Source: a virus
Taxonomy: Duplodnaviria > Heunggongvirae > Uroviricota > Caudoviricetes
DNA: 9,261 nucleotides
IMG/VR virus record: IMGVR_UViG_2657245500_000015
Reading direction: 5' to 3' (one strand)
Every line of letters starts with the position of its first letter. The stretch's first letter is position 1. A model generated the notes under the pieces. That model made no database searches. It had not been told where the DNA came from and saw only the letters and a list, made by a program, of their open reading frames with translations. Shown here in pieces: positions 1 through 9,261 of the stretch. A program made the translations under genes and the position numbers.

Positions 1-74
1 TTATCGTGAGAGTAATTCATCGGCACGTTAAATCATATCAGGCGTAATACCACAACCCTTAAGTTAGCGCTTAT

Positions 75-95
75 GGGGGGAAGTCCCCCTTTTTA
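75..95 (+). terminator. Putative rho-independent terminator
   Basis: G/C stem 76-80 (GGGGG) pairs with 85-89 (CCCCC), loop AAGT, followed by TTTTT at 90-94. Stop codons in all three + frames within 1-45 are consistent with a + strand gene ending just left of or at the window start. Confidence 0.4.
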
Positions 96-435
96 ACGTC
101 ATTTTATGCAGGGAATGTGTAGTTCTACACAGATTCTATGCAGTATCGGTATAGTCCCTTTTTATTCTAACTTATTGAAATATATAAAGAATCTGCAAAG
201 CCTCTTTTCAGGGAGCTATGCAGGGTGTTAGTCGTCCCTCTCCAGACACTACATATAGTGCTATATACAGGGCTATATAACGATATATAGATGTTTGGTC
301 ACATGGTGTAACTATCAAGAAACTTAATAGTTTCCTATGTGAAAGTTATTTCTGAGGGTGGGTAAGTGCTCAGGAGATTTCATGAGGATAATTCTTATCC
401 GAATCATCACGTAGAACACGCTTAAGCACAGATAC

Positions 436-458
436 AAAAAAGCCCCCATGAAGGAGGC
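436..458 (-). terminator. Putative rho-independent terminator of the recombinase gene
   Basis: On the minus strand the RNA reads GCCUCC-UUCAU-GGGGGC (6-bp stem with one G-U pair) followed by UUUUUU; it lies 27 nt downstream of the recombinase stop at 485. Confidence 0.55.
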
Positions 459-484
459 TATGAATCTATGCAGGTGATGAGAAA

Positions 485-1051
485 TTATTCAGCTTTAATA
501 CGCTGTACAGTTGACTTGGCAACGTTGAATTGAGCGGCTACTTTAGCGATTGAACTACCAGCAGCAAGAGCAGCTTTAATACCTTCTCTGTCAACCGCTT
601 TACCGTTACCCCTTCCAACTACACGACCAGCAGCTTTAGCAGCTTCATAACCTTCTCTTTGACGCTCAAGCATCATTTTACGTTCAGCTTCAGCCACTGC
701 TGAAAAGATTGTGAGAATCATCTTAGACGTGGGGTTATCGTCACCAGTTATCAGACCTTCTTTGTGAAAGTGAACCTTGATACCTTTCTGTGAAAGTTTA
801 TCCACCAGCGTTAATACATCCACGGTAGAGCGCCCTAAACGTGACAGGTCGTGTACATGGATAGTGTCACCTTCACGAACATAATCGAGCATAGCCTTTA
901 GTTGTGGACGGTCTGTATTCTTCCCAGATGCTTTATCAGTAAATACCTTATCCAGTACGACCCCTTCAAGTTGACGGTCTGTAATCTGCTGGATTGATGA
1001 AACTCGAACATAACCAATGTTAGCCATAATATACTCATTTGCCTTACTCAT
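485..1051 (-). CDS. Serine recombinase, resolvase/invertase family
   Basis: N-terminus MANIGYVRVSSIQQ matches the catalytic-serine motif of Hin/Gin/gamma-delta resolvase; also FTDKASG, DLSRLGRS, ILTIFSAVAEAER E-helix, and a C-terminal HTH (SSIAKVAAQFNVAKSTVQRI). The likely true start is the internal Met at 1027 (MANIGY...), since the ATG at 1051 has no SD. Confidence 0.9.
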   Translation of the reverse strand: MSKANEYIMANIGYVRVSSIQQITDRQLEGVVLDKVFTDKASGKNTDRPQLKAMLDYVREGDTIHVHDLSRLGRSTVDVLTLVDKLSQKGIKVHFHKEGLITGDDNPTSKMILTIFSAVAEAERKMMLERQREGYEAAKAAGRVVGRGNGKAVDREGIKAALAAGSSIAKVAAQFNVAKSTVQRIKAE

Positions 1052-1071
1052 TTGATGGATTGAGTATAACG

Positions 1072-1153
1072 TACCGATAAAGTGTTTTACAAGGCTAATC
1101 GGTATGGTTTTTACAGGGGGTTAGCTATACCTTTTTAGTATGCTATATCGGTA
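1072..1153. promoter_or_regulatory. Candidate recombinase binding (res/crossover-like) region upstream of the recombinase gene
   Basis: Inverted pair TACCGAT (1072-1078) and ATCGGTA (1098-1104), a further ATCGGTA at 1147-1153, and direct GTTTTACAAGG / GGTTTTTACAGG motifs. Its position just 5' of the recombinase gene is typical for res sites. Not validated. Confidence 0.25.
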
Positions 1154-1519
1154 TGCCTAAGAGATGGAGATGCCTTTACAGCAACTCACATAGAAAGTCA
1201 ATAGATATTTGGCTTTTTTGCAAAGGGGGTCACATAGCTGGTGTGACGGGTACTTAGCAGGTATAGACCTGTGATAGATATTTTCGAAGATTCGGGGAAG
1301 ATGAGATTCAAAGAGGGCTAGTCATTTTTTATAAAAATTTTCAGACTCTGAAAAGTTACTGTACAGATTTTATACAGATATCTTTAAAGTATCTGTAAAG
1401 ACTTTTAAGATAAGAGATAGATATCCCAGAAAGGATATCCGTTTAGAAAACCTGTTAAGTATCTCTTAAAAGAGAGTAAACCTTGTCAATAGTGATTGCA
1501 ATAAAAATTTTTATTTCTT

Positions 1520-2182
1520 ATGTCAATTGAGCATATTTTAATCGGGAAACATCATGGGGGTTCTGATTACTGGAGAACTCCATTTCTTATATTCCGCAAT
1601 TTGCACCGTGAGTTTAGTTTCAGTCTGGATGGTGCTGCAACTGAGCATGACACGCTGTTACCACGATTCACCAATGATATTCACAATCAGTCATGGGATG
1701 GTGAACGGGTGTTCTGTAACCCACCATACAGCGACACTAAAACATTCCTCCTAAAAGCCGCTGAAGCGGATTTAGCGGTATTCCTGATACCGTACCGACC
1801 CCACACCACATACTGGCTTAAGCACCTCTTCACAAACCCGCTTTGCCATGAAATCCGTATTCTTCATCGTGCAGTTAAATACCTTCCACCAGCAGGGCAT
1901 AACGGGCTTGCTATTAGGTCACCGTTTGCAAGTGCAATTGTCATCTTTAAAACTGAGCCACGCAGACATGAAATTACGCAGATGATTTGCTGTGCTGATA
2001 CATTGCTACCGTTAACCATCATTAACAGAGGAGGCTTAAGAGGAAGACCCACCATTTACCCACCTGAGACGCTCGACAGCTTCATAAAGCTATACAGGCA
2101 AGGAAAACCCATTAAGTGCATTGCAGATGCTCTCAGAATGCCTCTGAGCACGTCATACAGGATTGCGCAAAGGTTGAGCTAA
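1520..2182 (+). CDS. Dam-family DNA N6-adenine methyltransferase with C-terminal invertase-type HTH domain
   Basis: WRTP, FSLDGAATEHDTLLPRF, VFCNPPYSD and VFLIPYRP motifs are typical of phage (T1-type) Dam methyltransferases. The last ~55 aa (NRGGLRGRPT...LYRQGKPIKCIADALRMPLSTSYRIAQRL) match the GRP plus HTH C-terminal domain of Hin/Gin-type serine recombinases. No obvious SD before the ATG at 1520. Confidence 0.8.
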   Translation: MSIEHILIGKHHGGSDYWRTPFLIFRNLHREFSFSLDGAATEHDTLLPRFTNDIHNQSWDGERVFCNPPYSDTKTFLLKAAEADLAVFLIPYRPHTTYWLKHLFTNPLCHEIRILHRAVKYLPPAGHNGLAIRSPFASAIVIFKTEPRRHEITQMICCADTLLPLTIINRGGLRGRPTIYPPETLDSFIKLYRQGKPIKCIADALRMPLSTSYRIAQRLS

Positions 2183-2286
2183 AATTCTCATAAATATGGC
2201 CATTTACAAGACAGGTGATTTAGATATTAAGAAGTATCCCTGTGAACAATAAATGACCAATCAGTAATTATTCTGTGAAATAATTG

Positions 2287-2315
2287 TTGCAATCTATAAT
2301 CACACATGATATAGT
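2287..2315 (+). promoter_or_regulatory. Candidate sigma70 promoter (TTGCAA-N17-TATAGT) upstream of the replication gene
   Basis: TTGCAA at 2287-2292, 17-bp spacer, TATAGT at 2310-2315. Confidence 0.35.
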
Positions 2316-2548
2316 TTCATAGTGGGCTGATAAAAAAGTTCATGTCTTGAAGTGGTAACACTTGGGGAGGTGTCAGATGATTGACGTCAACAAGACCTCT
2401 CATTCAGGGTAATTACCTCAGCGTTTTAATCATCGTACTGTTTCAGGCATGGACTTCTTTATCAGTCCATCAATCCCCCAGATATTTTAATCACACAGGC
2501 TAATCGGTTTTATCCGGTTGGCCTTTTCACGTATGAGGTAATTTATGA

Positions 2549-3487
2549 ATGTCTAAATATAACCCAAATCAGTTTTATAAATTTGATGTGCGAATCTCTC
2601 AGCTTTCAGAAGAAATTAACGCAGCAGCAAGATTAATTTATATGGTCATGGTTCATAGCTGTGATTTCTATGAAGAGAAGTACAAAGCATATTCACCAAG
2701 TATTGACCATCTAGCTTATATGGCTGGTGTTTCAAAGAGAACGGCAATCAGAGCTATTGAGACACTTGAGAAACACGGTTTAATTCAGGTGCAAAAGAAT
2801 CAGGGTCGTCAAAGCACTTATCGTGTATTCACACTGGATGATAAGCCGGAATTACTTGTAAGACCTACATCACAGGAAGTTGCAGCCTCAGTAAGACAAA
2901 ATGACACCACTACCAGTGACAAAATGTCATCAGTACCAGTGACAAAATGTCATGGGGGTAGTGACAAAATGTCACCCGTGTTAGATAAGTTATTAGATAA
3001 AACATTAGATAATAATATTATAGATAAGAGTAAAGATACTGAACTTGATGTTGGTATCAATGAAGATGATTTTCTTTCTTTGGATGAATTAAATGATTTT
3101 CTCTCTATGAATGAATCTGACCTTGATAGTGAAGCTACTAAAGAGACCTCTAAAACATCTGACTTAGAGGAAGATAAAATCTCTGATGTGAATGAAGTTA
3201 GTGACCAGCAAGATACACCTTGCCGCCTCGAATCAACTGATGATGAATTACCGGATGTTGACCTTGATGATGAAGAAGACCCTGAAGAGGAATTGAAACG
3301 TGAACAGCGTAAAGCAGAAATTAAAGAAAGATTCAGAAAGGCAAAGCTAAAGAACAGGATTGATGAACTTGATGACTTTGATGATAGTGACGATGATTTT
3401 ACTTTTACACCAAAAAAGAAAACTCACACCGAGCCAAAGAAAGAAAAAGTTAAAGTCAGACGTGTTTATGCTGGAGGAATGTTTTAA
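2549..3487 (+). CDS. Replication initiator protein (N-terminal HTH DNA-binding domain, acidic C-terminal tail)
   Basis: N-terminal region (SIDHLAYMAGVSKRTAIRAIETLEKHGLI) resembles HTH-type phage/plasmid replication initiators. Four iterons and an AT-rich tract lie inside the coding sequence, as in lambda O/ori. SD GAGG at 2534-2537. The C-terminal third is highly acidic low-complexity sequence. Confidence 0.8.
   Translation: MSKYNPNQFYKFDVRISQLSEEINAAARLIYMVMVHSCDFYEEKYKAYSPSIDHLAYMAGVSKRTAIRAIETLEKHGLIQVQKNQGRQSTYRVFTLDDKPELLVRPTSQEVAASVRQNDTTTSDKMSSVPVTKCHGGSDKMSPVLDKLLDKTLDNNIIDKSKDTELDVGINEDDFLSLDELNDFLSMNESDLDSEATKETSKTSDLEEDKISDVNEVSDQQDTPCRLESTDDELPDVDLDDEEDPEEELKREQRKAEIKERFRKAKLKNRIDELDDFDDSDDDFTFTPKKKTHTEPKKEKVKVRRVYAGGMF
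2893..2975. repeat. Iteron array: four copies of the palindromic motif (a)GTGACAAAATGTCA(t) at ~23-bp spacing
   Basis: GACAAAATG cores at 2895-2903 (degenerate copy AGACAAAATGACA), 2918-2926, 2941-2949 and 2963-2971. Each full site has dyad symmetry (TGACA-AAA-TGTCA). The 23/23/22-bp period is about two helical turns. Confidence 0.7.
2981..3029. other. AT-rich tract with repeated TTAGATAA (putative DNA unwinding element of the origin)
   Basis: TTAGATAA at 2981-2988, 2993-3000 and 3005-3012 (12-bp period), and TAGATAAG at 3022-3029, immediately downstream of the iterons. Same order (iterons then AT-rich) as lambda ori. Confidence 0.5.
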
Positions 3488-3777
3488 TGAAAGAATATAA
3501 CGGTGAAAAACGATACAAAGATTATCTATTAAGGCGCTACAGCATTTCTCGTGAAGGTCATCTTCTGAAAGATACTCATGGGGAGGTTTACCGGATTCGA
3601 CCGAAGAAGGAAGGAAAGAATTATTTCTTTTTTGATGGTGTGACAGATTTAAAGATTGACGCTTTGAGGTTTGCAGTGATGTATCATTTTGATGTCTGGG
3701 ATTCAGTCCACCAGCTACGATTAAAAGACGGTGACCCCGGTAATCTGAAGGCCACCAATATCATCACAAAACGTTAG
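3487..3777 (+). CDS. Hypothetical small protein, NUMOD4/HNH_3-like (possibly degenerate HNH)
   Basis: The ATG overlaps the replication gene stop (TAATG coupling) and GGAGGA SD lies at 3471-3476. YSISREGHLL, ALRFAVMYHF and LRLKDGDPGNLKATN parallel the Y.VSN.GRV / HRLV / HIDGNK.NN.NL pattern of small HNH homing-endonuclease-like proteins, but the conserved His positions appear replaced. Confidence 0.6.
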   Translation: MKEYNGEKRYKDYLLRRYSISREGHLLKDTHGEVYRIRPKKEGKNYFFFDGVTDLKIDALRFAVMYHFDVWDSVHQLRLKDGDPGNLKATNIITKR

Positions 3778-3959
3778 TTTGTTTTACCATCATCAATCGT
3801 AATTGTGATTTCATATTTGAAAAGCTTAATGCTGAAATTGAATCGTGTACTTTTGGCGATAATCATTTTTAAAAGCTGATACACCAGAAGCACCAGAAAC
3901 ACAAAGCAACCTAAGCTTGCGAATCTGTGAGATTCAGCAATTGTTTCAAGAAAGCCCAT
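3774..3959 (-). CDS. Small hydrophobic (probable membrane) protein, 61 aa
   Basis: Minus-strand ORF with a predicted transmembrane stretch (LGCFVFLVLLVYQLL). SD-like AAGGGGA 5 nt upstream of the ATG, and a candidate minus-strand promoter at 4011-4038. Its 3' end overlaps the convergent ORF ending at 3777. Confidence 0.4.
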   Translation of the reverse strand: MGFLETIAESHRFASLGCFVFLVLLVYQLLKMIIAKSTRFNFSIKLFKYEITITIDDGKTN

Positions 3960-4010
3960 TAATTCCCCTTATTTATCAAAGGGAATGACCTGTATCAGCC
4001 CCTATAACCA

Positions 4011-4038
4011 TAATATCATGTAAATGAGATGTTGACAA
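4011..4038 (-). promoter_or_regulatory. Candidate minus-strand sigma70 promoter (TTGTCA-N16-TATTAT)
   Basis: The reverse complement of 4033-4038 is TTGTCA and of 4011-4016 is TATTAT, with a 16-bp spacer. It would drive the small hydrophobic ORF 3959->3774. Confidence 0.35.
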
Positions 4039-4060
4039 TATGTTAAATAAATGTTAAGAT
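4032..4060 (+). promoter_or_regulatory. Candidate sigma70 promoter (TTGACA-N17-TAAGAT) for the 4097-4812 operon
   Basis: TTGACA at 4032-4037, 17-bp spacer, TAAGAT at 4055-4060. Its -35 overlaps the -35 of the divergent minus-strand promoter. Confidence 0.4.
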
Positions 4061-4096
4061 TGTAGTATGAGTAAGAGATTTAAGGAGATTTTTACA

Positions 4097-4387
4097 ATGA
4101 CTCACACAGTTACGCGCCTTTTGCCAGAGGCATTTGAACGACTGGCAGCAATCAAAGCCAAATATCCCGATATGAAGCACACAGCGCTTGTTGCAGAGGT
4201 TTTAAAAGAGCCGGTAGACTTGACCCCTTTCGATAACGTTAAGGGCGTTGCAGAGGGTTCTAAGGCCATCAGAATCACAACGGGCCAACTGGAACTACTC
4301 AAAGCACAGTCCGCAGTAGCAGGTTGCTCAATGATTCAGGTCTTAAGCGCAAAGGTTCATCAATTAGCGGATAAGCTGGGGGTTTAA
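4097..4387 (+). CDS. Hypothetical DNA-binding protein, ribbon-helix-helix-like (possibly two tandem RHH motifs)
   Basis: The start is moved to the ATG at 4097 because of the AAGGAG SD at 4082-4087 (the ATG at 4067 sits on the promoter). TVTRLLPEAFERLAAIKAKY...HTALVAEVL and IRITTGQLELLKAQSAVAG...MIQVLSAKV each fit a beta-strand/helix/helix RHH pattern. Confidence 0.65.
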   Translation: MTHTVTRLLPEAFERLAAIKAKYPDMKHTALVAEVLKEPVDLTPFDNVKGVAEGSKAIRITTGQLELLKAQSAVAGCSMIQVLSAKVHQLADKLGV

Positions 4388-4812
4388 TGCTATGTACATT
4401 TGATTATCATGCGTTTTATCGACATAGAGGTCATCTTGTCCGTGAGAATAACGGAACATGGAAAGATTTAACTCGTAATGCTGAACCCTTCACACACCAG
4501 CAATTAAAATCCCGCTTCTCCAGATGGAAGAATGCACCAGCAGATACTGGTGATTTTGAGATTATCCATACCTTCGATTATGCCTCAGAAGATGACCTTC
4601 ACGATGCAATTAAGCTGATTGAAGACTTCAATACCTCAGAAAATGTGGATGGTGACAAATATAAATCCCGTGGTAACCGCTATAACCGTGATGATATCAC
4701 TCAGGCCATAAATGCTGGTCAATCTCAGCGATACATTACAGAAAAATATGGTATTTCACGGAGACAGTATTTCTACGTTAAATCATTGATTAATAAAGAC
4801 AATTCAAAATAA
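4387..4812 (+). CDS. Hypothetical protein with C-terminal helix-turn-helix
   Basis: The ATG overlaps the upstream stop (TAATG), indicating translational coupling. C-terminal ITQAINAGQSQRYITEKYGISRRQYFYV resembles resolvase/HTH_23-type HTH motifs. Confidence 0.65.
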   Translation: MLCTFDYHAFYRHRGHLVRENNGTWKDLTRNAEPFTHQQLKSRFSRWKNAPADTGDFEIIHTFDYASEDDLHDAIKLIEDFNTSENVDGDKYKSRGNRYNRDDITQAINAGQSQRYITEKYGISRRQYFYVKSLINKDNSK

Positions 4813-4971
4813 CCATCTCAGTAACGGTAGAATGCACTTTACAGGCAGAGTTGCACCTTAATTTGATAAATTACCTTACCAGCCAGTGCAACTCCCTCTG
4901 TAACCCGCATGGTTACTGGCCTCAGAATGGCTATTTTAAGAGGTCTGAGATGTGTTTTAGAGGAATTTAAA

Positions 4972-5295
4972 ATGAGCAATTACGAATTACAGATTTTCGT
5001 TGATAACGACACCGCTATGATGATTCAGGCTTTCAGTGATTCCGGTGTATCAATTGATTTTGACAGGCTGTTAAAGCTGATGGCTGATAATGCAGAAAAC
5101 ATCTCTGACTTTATTCAGTCGGTGGAGTTTAACGAGCCTCGAATGATGCTACCAATTACCGACTCAAACATGAAAAGATTGGTTATCGAGCAAACGAACA
5201 AACACAGTATTTCCCCAGAGCAATTTTTGAAAGGTGCTGTGACAATCCTGCACAGCGATAATATTCTGGTGACGGATTCTATGAGGGTTCACTAA
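4972..5295 (+). CDS. Hypothetical protein (107 aa)
   Basis: The start is placed at the ATG at 4972, preceded by GAGGA at 4959-4963; the longer ORF from 4909 has no SD. No family recognised. Confidence 0.6.
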   Translation: MSNYELQIFVDNDTAMMIQAFSDSGVSIDFDRLLKLMADNAENISDFIQSVEFNEPRMMLPITDSNMKRLVIEQTNKHSISPEQFLKGAVTILHSDNILVTDSMRVH

Positions 5296-5372
5296 TGGGA
5301 TTGATAATTGCTTGGACAGCTTTAGGTTTATTTGTTGGTTGCTGGGTGGGCAACACAGTAAATAAGAATTGA
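5295..5372 (+). CDS. Possible 25-aa hydrophobic peptide (MGLIIAWTALGLFVGCWVGNTVNKN)
   Basis: The ATG overlaps the stop of the upstream gene (TAATG at 5293-5297). The peptide is a single predicted transmembrane helix. Below the size cut-off of the ORF track. Confidence 0.3.
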   Translation: MGLIIAWTALGLFVGCWVGNTVNKN

Positions 5373-5396
5373 TGTTACCAATCTGTTAAAAAGCTG

Positions 5397-5425
5397 TTGA
5401 CAAATAACCTTAAGCATGGCATAAT
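5397..5425 (+). promoter_or_regulatory. Consensus-like sigma70 promoter (TTGACA-N17-CATAAT)
   Basis: TTGACA at 5397-5402, 17-bp spacer, CATAAT at 5420-5425; predicted transcription start near 5432. Confidence 0.5.
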
Positions 5426-5620
5426 TGTATATATGAGGATAGTCTTCTATCCGAAGTCTATAGGAAGAGCAATTTTTCCTAAAATCATATTTTCAATAAT
5501 CCGATGGATGGATATTCTGAGTTGGAAAGGTGCAATGCTTTTCGTCATGGCCTTTCAGTTTAGTCTGAGAGGTCATCTCAAAAAGTGCTTAATCATTCAT
5601 TATTGAACCCTTACAGCTTT

Positions 5621-5650
5621 GCCCTAACTCATGATTAGGGCGTTTTCTTT
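5621..5650 (+). terminator. Rho-independent terminator
   Basis: Stem GCCCTAA (5621-5627) pairs with TTAGGGC (5635-5641), 7-nt loop, followed by GTTTTCTTT. About 220 nt downstream of the 5397 promoter. Confidence 0.55.
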
Positions 5651-5720
5651 AAGAGTTTTGAAACAGAGCTTTTAAAGAAAGTTTTCCTGAAACTTCGTTA
5701 ACGTTATAAGCAAACCTTCA

Positions 5721-5755
5721 AAGCCCTTCACAGATTATGTTTAGGGCTTTTCTTA
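5721..5755 (+). terminator. Second terminator-like hairpin
   Basis: AAGCCCT (5721-5727) pairs with AGGGCTT (5743-5749), 15-nt loop, followed by TTCTT. Weaker than the first because of the large loop. Confidence 0.3.
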
Positions 5756-5851
5756 ATAGAGCATCTTTAATAAATCGTTAAGTCATCTTCTAAGTGTATT
5801 GGCGTTGAAGGTGCTCTATTAAGAAATAACCACACTTAGAGGAAAAAAATA

Positions 5852-6562
5852 ATGACAAACGATATTTACATTAATGGCAAAGTGATTGATAGCTTCGGTG
5901 ACTGGTCACCACAGACTGAACATCCAGCTATCGCTATTCAGCGCAAAGAGCACGATGCGAGAATTGCACTTGAGCAATCGCTAAAGATGACACCAAAGGA
6001 AATTACCTTTGTGGCTCCTGAACCTCAAGAGATGCCCGATATTGGCAAAACTGAAGCATTATTTAATCTTGAGCGCGAATATTACCCACAGTTAAAAGAA
6101 CAGCGCCTTAGATTAGATGACGCTTACAGCAAAGTTACCTTGATGCAATCAGCTATTGAGCCGTCAGAATTTGAGATTCAGGATGAATTGTCACAGAAAC
6201 CATTTGTCTATTACCAATACGAAGACAATGATGGTTTTGGTACTTTTCCAGAAAACATCACAGGCGTGATTAGTAGTCTTCCTGATGGATATCGAATTGT
6301 GAAGATGGTTAAAGCTTCAAGAGGTGCTGGTCAGTTTATTTACATGACCAATAAGAGCGATGAAGAACTCCGTGAAATTGCCAGACAGAACATCTTGGCA
6401 TCACGTAACAAGCAACTTGAAAATGTTAAGTTGTATCTCTCAAGAGAGCTTCAGGCTATGAAAGAGCTTGTTAGTGAATATGAGTCGCAGAAGAAGATTG
6501 CTATGCAAGCCGATATTGAGCAGCTTACGAAGATTTCTCAGAAGTATAGCAAAGCGATTTAA
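5852..6562 (+). CDS. Hypothetical protein (236 aa, C-terminal predicted coiled coil)
   Basis: Long ORF with SD AGAGG at 5838-5842 and ATG at 5852. No family recognised. Confidence 0.75.
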   Translation: MTNDIYINGKVIDSFGDWSPQTEHPAIAIQRKEHDARIALEQSLKMTPKEITFVAPEPQEMPDIGKTEALFNLEREYYPQLKEQRLRLDDAYSKVTLMQSAIEPSEFEIQDELSQKPFVYYQYEDNDGFGTFPENITGVISSLPDGYRIVKMVKASRGAGQFIYMTNKSDEELREIARQNILASRNKQLENVKLYLSRELQAMKELVSEYESQKKIAMQADIEQLTKISQKYSKAI

Positions 6563-6578
6563 TTTAAGTGAGGTGAGA

Positions 6579-6794
6579 ATGATTGATTTGCAACAGCGTT
6601 ATGAAACTATTAAGTCGGCTTGTGAAAACTTAAAGTTACAAACCAAGCCAGCCTTAAGAATTAAAACCAAACATCAAATTATCACCTCACACAAACCAAA
6701 AACACGCAAGATTCCAAAGTGGTGTATTGACCGTATTCCTTCTGATGCTCAAATCATAGGTGAAACGGAATTACATTATCTTGTCCGACATTAA
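6579..6794 (+). CDS. Hypothetical small basic protein (71 aa)
   Basis: ATG at 6579 preceded by GAGGTGA at 6568-6574. The longer ORF from 6468 overlaps the preceding gene and lacks an SD. Confidence 0.5.
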   Translation: MIDLQQRYETIKSACENLKLQTKPALRIKTKHQIITSHKPKTRKIPKWCIDRIPSDAQIIGETELHYLVRH

Positions 6795-6821
6795 AAAAGA
6801 ATTGGTTGGGTAAAAATCAAC

Positions 6822-6863
6822 GGGAGAGATTATCGAGTGATATCGGTAGTTTCTCCCTTTTTT
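6822..6863 (+). terminator. Putative terminator hairpin with T-run
   Basis: GGGAGA (6822-6827) pairs with TCTCCC (6852-6857), followed by TTTTTT at 6858-6863. The loop is long (24 nt), so stability is uncertain. Confidence 0.4.
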
Positions 6864-6870
6864 GTATGTG

Positions 6871-6913
6871 TGCTACGTGAAATCTTCTGAACAGATATAC
6901 CCACCAAAAATTA
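6871..6913. repeat. Direct repeat copy R1 (TGCTACGTGA-AAT-CTTCTGAACAGATA...AAAAATTA)
   Basis: About 43 bp, near-identical to 9110-9152: blocks TGCTACGTGA (10/10), CTTCTGAACAGATA (14/14) and CAAAAATTA match, with a short variable linker. R1 is additionally bounded by the 7-bp inverted repeat GCTACGT (6872-6878) / ACGTAGC (6920-6926). Confidence 0.7.
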
Positions 6914-6954
6914 TTTTTTACGTAGCTCACGCTTAAAGAGGTGAAAAAATATGA

Positions 6955-9021
6955 ATGGCACAATTTAAAGTTGATGATTTTCTGATTGAGCTAGGTTTTA
7001 ACTCTCAGAGGGTTTTAAAAGGTCTGGAAAAAGCCGAGAAACAAACGATGCAGGTAGCATCACGAATTGAGAAGCGATTGAATAAAGCTTTTAAAGTTAA
7101 CCCTACGCCTTTAAATGATTCTCTCAAGGTCATGGAAAGAAATGTCGATAAAACTGTTTCCAAGATTGAGCAGCGTCTTAAAAACACTAAAGCGTTTAAG
7201 ATTAAAACGGAAATTGAGGATACTTTAAAGCCACTTAGACAACCGAGACAGCCACGAATTAGCGGAAGCAGAGCAATTACAGCAGCGCATAGCGTGAATA
7301 TGAGCAAGCTTCGTGACTTTAATCCTATGCTTGAGAAGTATTTTAAAAGCCAGTATTACAGCTTAAGCAGTAAATCCAAGACACTTGGAAACGAAGCTTT
7401 TAATCGTGAGTTAGCAAAATTAAATCAATCTCTTCGTGAAACACTTTCTAAGTTTAACAAGACCACCAGCAAAAATAATCACAGTGAAAATGCTTCGAAT
7501 GGTCTGGATGTATTAGCTACGAGTGCAATCAAAGCAGGTACAGCCATTTATAGTTTTCAGACAGCCTTAGAAGCTTACAGGCGGATTATGGAGGTTGGTC
7601 TGAAAAAAGAAGCATCACAACGAGCGGCACAATTCGTTTTAGGTGATGAAGGTGCTAAACGAGCTACAGAATTTGTTAAGAATCTTGCTGATAGTAGTGG
7701 TGTAGACCAGATTGAAACATTAAGCAGTTTTGCTAAGTTTTCCGCTGGTGCTGGTGATATGAATGCAGACCAGAAAGAATCCTTATTTTCTAATGTGATT
7801 GGTACATCCAGATTAATGGGGCTAAGCACCGATGAAATTAACGGGATTTTAAAAGCTTTCGAGCAGATGGCATCTAAAGGAAAGATTCAGGCTGAAGAGC
7901 TACGCGGTCAATTAGGTGACAGAATGGCAGGTGCTTTTCAGTTATTTGCCAGAAGTCTTGGGATGACTACGGAAGAATTAGACAAGGCTATGAAAGACGG
8001 TAAGGTTCTTTCTAAAGATGTTCTCCCTAAAGTATCCGCTGAAATGGGAAAGATGATTGATAAAGCGGGAGGATGGGAAAAGATTATTAACTCTACTCAG
8101 ACGCAGTTAGGCCGCTTAAGTAATTCATGGAATAATAATTTGGCCTTAATGTTCGATGGTTCACAGGAAGGTTTAACAGACTTTACAAGGTCACTGACTA
8201 ATTTACTTAATTCACTGGGTGGTCAATCTAAAAATCTTGGTGAACATTTTGGCGACTTGATGAAAAGCATGTCAAACGGTATTGATGATTTAACCACGAT
8301 TAGCTACCGAGTGCAGGGATTCTTTGACAGAGTGACCCTTGCTTACAGAGAATTAAATGACACTCAAAAAGCTGTAGCTGATGGTATCGCAAATGGCCTG
8401 TTAAGTGCATTAAAGGGACTTGCTGGTATTGTCGCTGTAAGGTCTGGTATTGGTGCTGTAGGTGGTATCTGGAACTTAATTAGGGCTATTTCCACGCTTG
8501 GGAATGTAGCAAATACAGCAGCAGGAAGAATTAATTCACGTTCTGGTGGTGTTGAAAGTGGAAAAAGTAGGCTATCTGTAGCTGATGCAATTACCAGAGT
8601 AATGATTGTCGGTATGACAACTGATGTGATTAATGCCATTGTCAAACCGTTCTATGAACGTCAGATGAGTAAGTCAGATAATCCGATTGATAAAGTTGTA
8701 AGGTCAAAGGTGGAACCCACAGACCAGGCATTAACTGGTGACATGAACTCTTTAGCCGCTGTTTTATGGGCTATGGTTCATGGCAAATCAAAAGATGTTC
8801 CACAGTTTTCACCTGAAGCATTAAATAATCTAAAAGGTCGAGTGGAAACATTCACACAAGATTTAAAGGTTATCAAGCCGTCAGTAAATATTCAGCCTCA
8901 GACAATCAATATCACAACTCAGACGGTACTTGATGGAAAGGTTATTGATGAAAGAACCACATCGCATATTAATCGTATGCAGGAAGATACCTTGATTAGC
9001 TCAGCTTACCCAGAGGAATAA
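6955..9021 (+). CDS. Tape-measure-domain protein (phage tail tape measure-like), 688 aa
   Basis: The segment FEQMASKGKIQAEELRGQLGDRMAGAFQLFARSLGMTTEELDKAMKDGKVLSKDVLPKVSAEMGK matches the conserved tape-measure domain pattern (SKGK.Q.EEL..QL..R.PGA.Q..A...G....EL...M..GK.L...VLP). A Gly-rich hydrophobic segment (GLAGIVAVRSGIGAVGGIWNLI) is typical of tape-measure proteins. SD AAAGAGGTGA at 6936-6945. Confidence 0.85.
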   Translation: MAQFKVDDFLIELGFNSQRVLKGLEKAEKQTMQVASRIEKRLNKAFKVNPTPLNDSLKVMERNVDKTVSKIEQRLKNTKAFKIKTEIEDTLKPLRQPRQPRISGSRAITAAHSVNMSKLRDFNPMLEKYFKSQYYSLSSKSKTLGNEAFNRELAKLNQSLRETLSKFNKTTSKNNHSENASNGLDVLATSAIKAGTAIYSFQTALEAYRRIMEVGLKKEASQRAAQFVLGDEGAKRATEFVKNLADSSGVDQIETLSSFAKFSAGAGDMNADQKESLFSNVIGTSRLMGLSTDEINGILKAFEQMASKGKIQAEELRGQLGDRMAGAFQLFARSLGMTTEELDKAMKDGKVLSKDVLPKVSAEMGKMIDKAGGWEKIINSTQTQLGRLSNSWNNNLALMFDGSQEGLTDFTRSLTNLLNSLGGQSKNLGEHFGDLMKSMSNGIDDLTTISYRVQGFFDRVTLAYRELNDTQKAVADGIANGLLSALKGLAGIVAVRSGIGAVGGIWNLIRAISTLGNVANTAAGRINSRSGGVESGKSRLSVADAITRVMIVGMTTDVINAIVKPFYERQMSKSDNPIDKVVRSKVEPTDQALTGDMNSLAAVLWAMVHGKSKDVPQFSPEALNNLKGRVETFTQDLKVIKPSVNIQPQTINITTQTVLDGKVIDERTTSHINRMQEDTLISSAYPEE

Positions 9022-9109
9022 ACAATGTTAGAGCTACTAATATTTATTGCCACACATGGCAATCTATTAATCTTTATCTAGTATGACGATTCAACTATGA
9101 ATAGTCGAA

Positions 9110-9152
9110 TGCTACGTGATTTCTTCTGAACAGATACCAACATCAAAAATTA
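9110..9152. repeat. Direct repeat copy R2
   Basis: Near-identical to R1 (6871-6913); lies 89 bp downstream of the tape-measure gene stop. It lacks the right-hand ACGTAGC inverted-repeat arm seen at R1. Confidence 0.7.
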
Positions 9153-9261
9153 GATGAACCGCCCCGGGTTTCCTGGAGAGTGTTTTATCTGTGAACTCAG
9201 GCTGCCAGATCATTGTTTCCGATGGAAGCATAATAAGCTTTTTCTGCTTCTGCCGGAGGAG
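9112..9261 (-). CDS. Possible 3' end of a minus-strand gene continuing beyond the window (partial)
   Basis: The minus-strand frame is open for 49 codons from the window edge to a TAG at 9112-9114 (...LIFDVGICSEEIT*). The last ~110 bp are about 50% GC by manual count, against roughly 40% elsewhere. A + strand frame from the ATG at 9154 is also open, so strand and reality are uncertain. Confidence 0.25.
   Translation of the reverse strand, partial: LLRQKQKKLIMLPSETMIWQPEFTDKTLSRKPGAVHLIFDVGICSEEIT

What the first reader, a model, noticed from the sequence alone, without database searches (positions are those of the whole stretch)
6871..9152. 43-bp imperfect direct repeats bracket the tape-measure gene
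R1 (6871-6913) and R2 (9110-9152) share TGCTACGTGA, CTTCTGAACAGATA and CAAAAATTA blocks with only a short variable linker, far beyond chance for this window. They delimit a 2.2-kb segment that contains exactly one gene, the tape-measure-domain protein. R1 is itself enclosed by a 7-bp inverted repeat (GCTACGT...ACGTAGC, 6872-6926). Possible roles: recombination or attachment-type sites (cassette exchange of the enclosed gene), a repeated regulatory or 3'-UTR element, or a remnant of a duplicated gene end (the reverse complement of both copies reads ...ICSE(E/D)(I/F)T-stop).
Basis: seen in the sequence. Interest (0 to 1): 0.6.

Follow-up and report, generated by a model that had tools for sequence, protein, structure and literature searches.

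The report
Repeated palindromic gene-expression cassette, not att sites
The two 43-bp repeats are copies of a roughly 70-bp palindrome-flanked unit that sits just upstream of two stolen phage-tail genes in a small E. coli island related to Felix O1-like phages; the same unit sits upstream of genes in phage P1 relatives and one P22-like prophage, and also occurs in many Klebsiella plasmids.

Summary
The repeat is real: 36 of 43 bases match, against 27-30 in simulations. It is incomplete in this window. An IS629 insertion at 9154/9155 cuts off the 3' third of copy R2.

In intact relatives each copy is TGCTACGTGA, then 39 nt, then ACGTAGCTCACGCTTAA, then a ribosome-binding site. The two arms are inverted repeats whose starts are always 48 nt apart.

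The host is an ~11-kb E. coli island with a replication initiator, a Dam-like methylase and a large serine integrase. It also carries a tape-measure protein (TMP) gene and a Dit-like gene homologous to Felix O1 gp67 and gp68. R1 follows a strong terminator and precedes the TMP gene. R2 precedes the Dit-like gene. A third, interrupted copy (R3) lies at 333-428 on the minus strand.

The same arms and spacing occur upstream of P1 cra-cre, overlapping the annotated promoter P3cre. They also occur upstream of other Cre-like genes, in a P22-like prophage and in over 1000 Klebsiella plasmids.

R resembles neither the island's att sites nor invertase sites, and the TMP gene is never deleted or inverted. 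The best reading (~0.45) is a portable promoter/operator cassette. As conserved homology it also marks mosaic exchange boundaries, like the promoter-terminator cassettes (PeSLs) of T4-type phages. The trans-acting factor is unknown.

The parts
6822..6863 (+). Intrinsic terminator directly upstream of R1: a 15-bp stem at 6822-6857 and a T6 run at 6858-6863. It closes the upstream gene block.
   Evidence: strand folding gives dG -23.6 kcal/mol, z -6.1. It is the top terminator-like site in the island of relative L001. It is conserved, with stem changes that keep pairing, in all islands examined.
6871..6936 (+). R1, a complete copy of the unit. Left arm GCTACGTGAAA at 6872-6882, AT-rich variable core, -10-like hexamer TATTTT at 6912-6917, right arm TTACGTAGC at 6918-6926, conserved box CACGCTTAA at 6928-6936.
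   Evidence: The arm start-to-start spacing of 48 nt is the same in every uninterrupted copy found.
6936..6957 (+). Shine-Dalgarno sequence AAGAGGTGA (6936-6944) and the TMP start codon (6955-6957). The ATG is 35 nt after the start of ACGTAGC in the right arm.
6955..9021 (+). Tape-measure protein gene (688 aa), the single gene enclosed by the repeats. It is 28-29% identical over its full length to Felix O1-like phage TMPs (Felix O1 gp67).
9047..9062 (+). Short hairpin TTGCCACACATGGCAA followed by T-rich sequence, lying between the TMP stop codon and R2. At best a weak terminator-like element.
   Evidence: Read directly from the sequence. It is not listed by the terminator scan.
9110..9154 (+). 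R2, truncated: the left arm (9111-9119) and core only. The IS629 insertion cuts inside the -10-like hexamer (TAGA|TT). The right arm, the CACGCTTAA box and the downstream Dit-like gene are missing from the window.
9155..9261 (.). Terminal part of IS629 (IS3 family), beginning TGAACCGCCCCGGG. This is the insertion that truncates R2.
   Evidence: 97-100% identity to annotated IS629 / IS3-family copies
333..428 (-). R3, a third and interrupted copy on the minus strand. Its left arm is TTCTACGTGA (416-407) with the flank CTTAAGCGTG. It carries a 27-nt palindromic insertion (about 406-380). Its -10-like hexamer is TAACTT and its right arm is TTTCACATAGG (345-335). It points toward the island's left (attL) end.
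   Evidence: The same 27-nt insertion sits at the same position in R1 of island L015.

Best explanation
R is a portable cis-acting gene-expression cassette that works at the DNA level. It consists of an AT-rich core with a -10-like hexamer, bracketed by two sequence-conserved inverted arms (GCTACGTRAA and YACGTAGC) whose starts are exactly 48 nt apart, followed by a Shine-Dalgarno sequence. In this island it makes the TMP gene and the Dit-like gene separate transcription units downstream of a terminator or hairpin. If the hexamer is a real -10, transcription would start inside the right arm. The arms would then lie at about -48 and about +1, the positions expected for an operator or activator site. 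The lack of a -35 hexamer implies dependence on a trans-acting factor, which could come from the host, the helper phage or the element itself; this factor is not identified. As a secondary, passive effect, the conserved cassette provides homology for recombination and gene conversion. This shuffles R types and flanking modules among islands, in the manner of PeSL cassettes. What is shown: the anatomy, the positions, the conservation pattern, the homologous units elsewhere, and the mosaicism. What is inferred: promoter activity, the start site, and arm-binding by a protein.
For: (1) Position. In intact relatives both copies sit upstream of consecutive genes in the same orientation. The gene's ATG lies 35-36 nt after ACGTAGC in window-type islands. 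R1 directly follows the strongest intrinsic terminator of the island. (2) The same arms and spacing lie 25-46 nt upstream of start codons in independent contexts: P1 cra-cre, other Cre-like genes (L026, L074, L079), the L017/L064 operon, and an ejection-protein gene in a P22-like prophage. (3) In P1 the annotated sigma-70 promoter P3cre has its -10 hexamer TAAAAT at 124-129, inside the left arm. The record equates P3cre with the earlier promoter pR1. (4) Conservation across 22 variants: the arm cores are invariant, as are A48 and T52. These are positions 2 and 6 of the hexamer, the two most important -10 positions. The rest of the core varies. (5) The arms show no compensatory change: covariation score 0.098 against a shuffled mean of 0.096. 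The sequence itself is conserved, as expected for a protein-binding site rather than a structure-only helix. (6) The spacing is identical in all uninterrupted copies despite unrelated core sequences. (7) The terminator-R1-SD block stays 90-100% identical where both flanks drop to 40-70%. Chimeric core types occur in both positions.
Against: No consensus sigma-70 promoter is found in R. The best pairing is TGAACA-18-TATTTT, 8 of 12, below the scan threshold, and the -35 region is not conserved. A48 and T52 also belong to the extended palindrome, since they pair with T20 and A16. The D-type exceptions are recombinants. So their invariance is not independent proof of a -10. In P1 the annotated -10 lies in the left arm, not at the hexamer I propose. 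The satellite left arm reads TGAAAT, where the G at position 2 is unfavourable. Several islands lack R1 yet keep the TMP gene right behind the terminator (L018, L085, L071), so R1 is dispensable or replaceable. Copies with a 27-30-nt insertion break the spacing. In Klebsiella plasmids no annotated gene follows the unit closely. No shared candidate regulator was found between the island and P1-like loci. The unit is absent from the half of Felix O1 examined (21.8-64.1 kb) and from the whole SUSP2 genome.
Confidence: 0.45

Rival explanations
1. R acts as RNA. On read-through or upstream-initiated transcripts the arms pair into a hairpin 20-40 nt upstream of the ribosome-binding site. That hairpin would stabilise or process the mRNA, or modulate translation of the downstream gene.
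For: The arms fold into stable hairpins: dG -17 to -29 kcal/mol, z -3.5 to -5.2. The P1 and Klebsiella versions have stems of about 17-20 bp. Several arm mismatches are G.U-compatible on the gene strand (pair 14-54). In the P22-like prophage and in tail-gene operons an internal promoter is not expected.
Against: There is no covariation above shuffles. A.C mismatches occur on the gene strand in P1, L064 and L058. R1 sits immediately after a strong terminator, so few upstream transcripts would contain it. The P1 promoter annotated in the left arm would yield RNA lacking that arm. A strictly fixed loop length is not needed for a hairpin. There is no Rfam match.
Confidence: 0.13
2. R is mainly a selfish or hitch-hiking palindromic mini-element, MITE- or REP-like. 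It spreads among mobile elements by insertion or recombination, and its position next to genes merely reflects the short intergenic spaces there.
For: At the R1 position there is a precise presence/absence polymorphism of the arm-to-arm unit: empty sites GTATATG|AACGCTTAA in L018 and L085. The unit has terminal inverted repeats. It occurs in unrelated element types: the island, P1-like phage-plasmids, a P22-like prophage and more than 1000 Klebsiella IncFIB/HI1B plasmids. It carries nested small palindromic insertions.
Against: There is no target-site duplication at filled versus empty sites. It is not dispersed through host chromosomes: BLAST matches occur in 448 of 5426 E. coli genomes, with a median of one match per genome. 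In the five fetched chromosomal loci the unit occurs only inside the island. No cognate transposase is evident. Orientation and distance to start codons are consistent across many contexts. Arm sequence and spacing are conserved far beyond what a decaying MITE would keep.
Confidence: 0.17
3. R1 and R2 are site-specific recombination sites (att- or res-type) that excise or exchange the TMP gene as a cassette.
For: The copies are direct repeats flanking a single gene. The island encodes serine recombinases. TMP alleles are highly variable between islands.
Against: The integrase's att site is a different palindrome at the island ends. R matches cix at 13/26, below the chance best of 16/26. The small invertase lies in a variable slot, and islands without one in the sequence examined still have R. 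No island lacks or inverts the TMP gene, and no solo hybrid R was seen. The same unit occurs singly upstream of genes in P1-like elements. Mosaic breakpoints also fall inside the TMP gene.
Confidence: 0.04

Closest known systems
PeSL cassettes (promoter-early stem-loop) of T4-type phages (Arbiol et al. 2010, PMC2839356; Comeau et al. 2014, PMC4122927)
   Same: Both are short repeated intergenic composites ordered stem-loop/terminator, then promoter-type sequence, then SD. Both flank individual genes in direct orientation and serve as homology for modular shuffling and chimeric copies.
   Different: PeSLs carry consensus sigma-70 -35 and -10 boxes with tested promoter and terminator activity, and they form mini-circles. 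R has only a -10-like hexamer and no conserved -35. R is defined by sequence-conserved inverted arms at fixed spacing, sits in islands, phage-plasmids and plasmids of enterobacteria, and shows no deletion of the enclosed gene.
Regulatory region of phage P1 cra-cre (promoter P3cre, which the record equates with pR1; NC_005856 nt 104-206)
   Same: It appears homologous. It has the same arms (GCGCTACGTAAAATCTG ... CAGATTTCGCGTAGCGC), the same 48-nt spacing and a similar AGAGGTGAAAAATG ribosome-binding region.
   Different: In P1 the annotated -10 lies in the left arm, with a Dam-methylated -35 just upstream. The island copies lack that -35 and have G at hexamer position 2. In the 1-3000 stretch of the P1 record that I read, the inverted repeat is not annotated as a feature.
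Morons and conserved boundary or linker sequences of mosaic phages (general concept, from my own knowledge)
   Same: A gene carries its own upstream promoter-type element and is set off by terminators. A conserved non-coding block coincides with mosaic joints.
   Different: Here the enclosed genes are core tail genes copied from a helper-type phage, not accessory genes, and the same cassette is shared by unrelated element families.
Site-specific recombination sites: serine-integrase attP/attB and hix/gix/cix invertase sites
   Same: Short repeated sequences with dyad symmetry, lying next to recombinase-bearing DNA.
   Different: Different sequence, different geometry (arms 48 nt apart), direct rather than inverted orientation, no co-occurrence with the invertase, and no rearranged variants.
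MITEs and REP/BIME palindromic elements
   Same: A small unit with terminal inverted repeats, an intergenic location and presence/absence polymorphism.
   Different: No target duplication, no genome-wide dispersal, no similarity that I recognise to the E. coli REP consensus (from memory, not computed), and a consistent position upstream of start codons.

Membership tests
PeSL-type promoter/terminator cassette | Repeated intergenic motif flanking genes in direct orientation | tested here: met
   R1 and R2 flank the TMP gene in 11 of the 19 related islands examined, plus this window; R2 is present in every one.
PeSL-type promoter/terminator cassette | Stable stem-loop acting as terminator or attenuator of upstream transcription | tested here: met
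   For R1 there is a 15-bp stem plus T6 run at 6822-6863, dG -23.6. For R2 there is only a weak hairpin, or none in L004-type islands. Activity was not measured.
PeSL-type promoter/terminator cassette | Consensus sigma-70 promoter (-35 and -10 boxes) | tested here: not met
   No site with 9 or more of 12 matches lies inside R. Only a -10-like hexamer is conserved, and the -35 region varies.
PeSL-type promoter/terminator cassette | Recombination between copies yields chimeric copies and indels of the flanked gene | tested here: inconclusive
   Chimeric core types occur, and types swap between the R1 and R2 positions. No island with the TMP gene deleted was seen. Mini-circles cannot be tested here.
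Sigma-70 promoter with flanking operator | Transcription start within or just after the unit; expression depends on the hexamer and arms | not testable with these tools
   This needs TSS mapping or reporter assays. The only indirect support is that the P1 record annotates P3cre in the homologous unit.
DNA-invertase crossover sites (hix/gix/cix) | 26-bp site with two 12-bp inverted half-sites resembling TTATCAAAAACC | tested here: not met
   The best match of the P1 cixL core to R1 or R2 is 13/26, against a chance best of 16/26 elsewhere in the window.
DNA-invertase crossover sites (hix/gix/cix) | Paired sites in inverted orientation with a cognate invertase in cis | tested here: not met
   The copies are direct repeats. 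The invertase lies in a variable slot. No invertase match was found in the sequence examined for L002, L004 and L005, which still have R1 and R2.
Serine-integrase att site | Sequence matches the element's attP/attL/attR and lies at the element boundary | tested here: not met
   The island ends carry TAGTGTATTTA|AATACACTA (L002). R is internal and unrelated in sequence.
MITE / REP-like mobile palindrome | Terminal inverted repeats plus presence/absence polymorphism | tested here: met
   The arms are 9-17 nt inverted repeats. The R1 unit is precisely absent in L018 and L085.
MITE / REP-like mobile palindrome | Target-site duplication and many dispersed copies in the host genome | tested here: not met
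   There is no duplication at filled versus empty sites. BLAST matches occur in 448 of 5426 E. coli genomes, with a median of one match per genome. In the five fetched chromosomal loci the unit is found only inside the island.
Structured RNA element (conserved helix) | Compensatory base changes that maintain the helix | tested here: not met
   77.5% of cells are paired, but the covariation score is 0.098 against a shuffled mean of 0.096, and 226 of 500 shuffles do as well. The core pairs never vary, so the test has limited power. There is no Rfam match.
Intrinsic terminator | GC-rich hairpin with a short loop followed by a T run | tested here: not met
   The R arms enclose a 25-39-nt loop and are followed by CACGCTTAA rather than a T run. 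The true terminator is the separate hairpin at 6822-6863.

The most novel reading that the evidence does not exclude
R may be a so far undescribed family of portable palindromic expression switches. It would be shared by unrelated enterobacterial mobile elements: a Felix O1-related island, P1-type phage-plasmids (upstream of cre), a P22-like prophage and large Klebsiella IncFIB/HI1B plasmids. A common, probably host-encoded, factor or a DNA-structure transition would read it. That would couple expression of integrase, recombinase and virion genes across different elements to one signal. The island itself would be an undescribed satellite, or tail-assembly parasite, of virulent Felix O1-like phages that uses this switch for its hijacked TMP and Dit-like genes.
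Probability: 0.2. Interest if true: 0.7.

Novelty: new variant of a known kind. Interest (0 to 1): 0.45.

Why it matters
If R is a working promoter/operator cassette, it shows how a small island makes two tail genes copied from a virulent phage into separately controlled units. It would also reveal a regulatory module that very different mobile elements share, including the P1 cre region used throughout molecular genetics. Identifying the factor that reads the arms could expose a common control point for satellites, phage-plasmids and large plasmids. More modestly, the conserved block explains where mosaic exchange between island variants can occur. For annotation, it warns that direct repeats around a phage gene need not be att sites. 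It also shows that this window is an IS-truncated remnant in which R2 and the downstream gene are disrupted.

Tried and rejected
- tRNA and Rfam scans of the window found nothing at R.
- BLAST of R against phage genomes gave no match.
- Motif and profile (nhmmer) searches found no R in Felix O1 21.8-64.1 kb or in the whole SUSP2 genome. I therefore dropped the idea that R copies a helper-phage promoter. SUSP2 has its own, different, repeated early-promoter cassettes.
- P1 late promoters (a -22 box such as AAGTGACTT plus CAGAAT) do not match R.
- tblastn of all island ORFs against P1-like loci and the first 50 kb of P1 found only the invertase-Cin match. No shared regulator emerged.
- A full-text search for the arm sequences returned only primer and shRNA noise.
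- Searches for a described Felix O1 satellite found nothing relevant.
- From memory only, not tested: I compared the arms with many E. coli transcription-factor consensus sites, RfaH ops, boxA, integron attC core sites and IS terminal repeats. I saw only short similarities that look like chance.
- The idea that R3 drives the integrase gene across attP in the excised circle fits the geometry, but it is untested.
Full report
**Observation.** The window's top direct repeat is 6871-6913 against 9110-9152, with 36 of 43 bases identical and the copies 2239 nt apart. My exhaustive diagonal scan confirms this as the best 43-mer match in the window. Sixty first-order Markov simulations reached only 27-30 matches. 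One gene lies between the copies, at 6955-9021. It matches Pfam TMP_3 and PHROG tape-measure families.

**What the window is.** Both ends of the window are insertion sequences. The left end matches records where IS421 is annotated, and the right end from about 9155 is IS629. The ~9 kb between them is 88-94% identical, in pieces, to an ~11-kb chromosomal island found in 569 of 5426 complete E. coli genomes.

Intact copies are L001, between yciI and tonB, and L002, inside a DUF72 gene. The gene order in intact islands is as follows.
- A variable slot, which in this window holds a 188-aa DNA invertase.
- A Dam-type methylase.
- A replication initiator with iterons inside the gene.
- Several unknown ORFs.
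- The TMP gene, then a Dit-like gene annotated 'baseplate protein'.
- A large serine recombinase on the opposite strand.

The Dit-like protein is 70-74% identical to a protein of Felix O1-like myophages (Ounavirinae). The TMP is 28-29% identical to theirs over its full length. In Felix O1 and SUSP2 the two genes (gp67 and gp68) are adjacent with no spacer. The island therefore looks like a satellite or parasite of these virulent phages. I found no description of such an element.

**The real unit.** In intact relatives R2 continues past the point where IS629 cuts it in the window...CAAAAATTAGA|TTTCACGTAGCTCACGCTTAACAGA, followed by an SD and the ATG of the Dit-like gene. R1 continues the same way into the TMP start.

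The unit is therefore TGCTACGTGA, 39 nt, then ACGTAGCTCACGCTTAA. The arms are inverted repeats, and their start-to-start spacing is 48 nt in every uninterrupted copy.

R1 directly follows the island's strongest intrinsic terminator at 6822-6863, with dG -23.6 kcal/mol. In window-type islands the downstream ATG lies 35-36 nt after ACGTAGC for both copies. In L004-type islands R2 abuts the TMP stop codon and lies 97 nt from the Dit-like start.

A third copy, R3, lies on the minus strand at 333-428. It carries a 27-nt palindromic insertion that is also present at the same position in R1 of island L015.

**Comparative pattern.** I compared 19 related islands (L001-L005 and 14 IMG/VR loci) with this window.
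- The order o236, o72, terminator, R1, TMP, R2, Dit-like, integrase is constant.
- The TMP gene is never missing or inverted.
- TMP alleles range from 41% to 97% amino-acid identity.
- R2 is always present.
- R1 is precisely absent in L018 and L085, leaving the empty site GTATATG|AACGCTTAA. More is missing in L071. L014 and L033 carry another small palindrome in its place.
- The inner core comes in several types. These occur at either position and as chimeras, while the immediate 5' flank stays position-specific.
- The terminator-R1-SD block remains 90-100% identical where both flanks fall to 40-70%. Other mosaic joints lie inside the TMP gene.

This is what recombination or gene conversion at a conserved non-coding block would produce. 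It is not the pattern of site-specific excision.

**Not att or invertase sites.** The island ends carry a different palindrome, TAGTGTATTTA|AATACACTA, as expected for a serine-integrase attP. R matches the P1 cix core at 13/26, below the chance best of 16/26 elsewhere in the window. Islands with no detected small invertase still have R1 and R2.

**The unit occurs elsewhere.** A pattern scan of viral contigs and later analysis found the same arms and the same spacing in several other settings.
- Upstream of cra-cre in phage P1, at NC_005856 nt 116-174.
- Upstream of other Cre-like recombinase genes (L026, L074, L079).
- Upstream of a PHROG-7674 gene followed by cra and cre (L017, L064, L103).
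- Upstream of an ejection-protein gene in a P22-like prophage (L058).

In these cases a start codon follows ACGTAGC by 25-46 nt. The P1 record annotates the sigma-70 promoter P3cre with its -10 hexamer TAAAAT inside the left arm, and equates P3cre with the earlier promoter pR1.

BLAST with the P1 unit also matches 1765 plasmids. Of these, 1046 match at 60-80% identity, and Klebsiella accounts for 1029 of all hits. The two I read are IncFIB/HI1B plasmids. Both have the 48-nt spacing but no annotated gene immediately downstream.

The unit is absent from the half of Felix O1 examined and from all of SUSP2. No protein other than the invertase-Cin pair is shared between the island and the P1-like loci examined.

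**DNA or RNA.** In an alignment of 22 variants the arm cores are invariant. So are A48 and T52, which are positions 2 and 6 of a -10-like hexamer reading TATTTT, TAGATT, TAGAAT or CAGAAT. The rest of the core varies.

The arms would fold stably as RNA or single-stranded DNA, with dG -17 to -29 kcal/mol and z -3.5 to -5.2. Pair counts show no covariation above shuffles, 0.098 against 0.096. Mismatches of both the G.T and the A.C kind occur.

Conserved sequence plus fixed spacing favours recognition on double-stranded DNA. There are three caveats.
- No consensus -35 exists.
- A48 and T52 are also part of the extended palindrome.
- Some islands do without R1.

**Conclusion.** The most likely reading, at about 0.45, is a portable promoter/operator-type cassette that gives the TMP and Dit-like genes their own control. 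A secondary role is as a recombination substrate that shuffles modules. The closest described analogue is the PeSL cassette of T4-type phages (PMC2839356, PMC4122927). The rivals are:
- a 5'-UTR RNA hairpin (0.13);
- a MITE-like selfish palindrome (0.17);
- site-specific recombination sites (0.04).

In this particular window the system is a remnant. IS629 splits the R2 hexamer (TAGA|TT) and removes the downstream gene, and the IS421-type end replaces about 95 nt of the island's left end, including the attL half.

Noticed in passing
window 1-9261; relatives L001 about 11,700-23,400 and L002 about 11,910-22,985: The window is an IS-truncated copy of an ~11-kb integrative island present in 569 of 5426 E. 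coli genomes. The island carries a replication initiator, a Dam-like methylase, a large serine integrase, and homologues of Felix O1 gp67 (TMP) and gp68 (Dit-like, 70-74% identical). It looks like an undescribed satellite or tail-assembly parasite of virulent Felix O1-like phages.
   Followed up: partly
window 348-1204: This is a variable cargo slot. Here it holds a 188-aa resolvase/invertase-family gene on the minus strand (485-1051). L001 has a different 183-aa recombinase on the plus strand, L002 has non-coding DNA, and L005 has an AP2-type gene. R-like arm sequences lie near both edges of the slot: CCTATGTGAAAG at 334-345 and TCACATAGC at 1230-1238.
   Followed up: partly
window 2895-2979: Four tandem iteron-like repeats (GACAAAATGNCA-type, period 22-23 nt) lie inside the replication-initiator gene (2549-3487), as in lambda O-type origins.
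   Followed up: no
L002 about 11,905-11,930 and 22,960-22,990; L001 right end about 23,320-23,400: The island ends form an imperfect palindromic attP, TAGTGTATTTA|AATACACTA. In L002 the integrase start codon is only about 55 nt from the right end. R3 points outward from the left end, so in an excised circle it would read across attP into the integrase gene.
   Followed up: partly
L115 5005-5066 and L116 5009-5072 (Klebsiella and E. coli IncFIB/HI1B plasmids): The same palindromic unit, about 78% identical to the P1 version, matches about 1000 large, mainly Klebsiella, plasmids. In the two copies I read it lies in a long non-coding stretch. It is followed by a conserved 7-10-codon mini-ORF (MIS(V/G)RL...), and in L115 it is flanked by CAAAAGTTACTTTT direct repeats.
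   Followed up: no
L114 19,840-25,490 (phage SUSP2 nt 64,840-70,490): The early region of this helper-type phage consists of small ORFs, each preceded by a repeated ~85-nt cassette: TTTACA, then an inverted repeat GGGGTTATA...TATAGCCCC around a -10, then CCTAAACTGGAGATTCAAAAATG. This is a PeSL-like promoter array, unrelated in sequence to R.
   Followed up: no
window 6955-6969 versus L017 (oriented) 757-771: The TMP gene and the unrelated PHROG-7674 gene that follows R in P1-like elements start with nearly the same codons: ATGGCACA(A/G)(T/A)TTAAA, giving MAQFK and MAQIK. This hints that the exchanged module may include the first codons.
   Followed up: no
window 9144-9261: A few Stx-phage IS629 copies match the window from 9144-9150, that is 5-11 nt of flanking AAAAATTAGA-like sequence beyond the IS end. 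This suggests either an IS629 preference for this AT-rich target or a shared junction.
   Followed up: no
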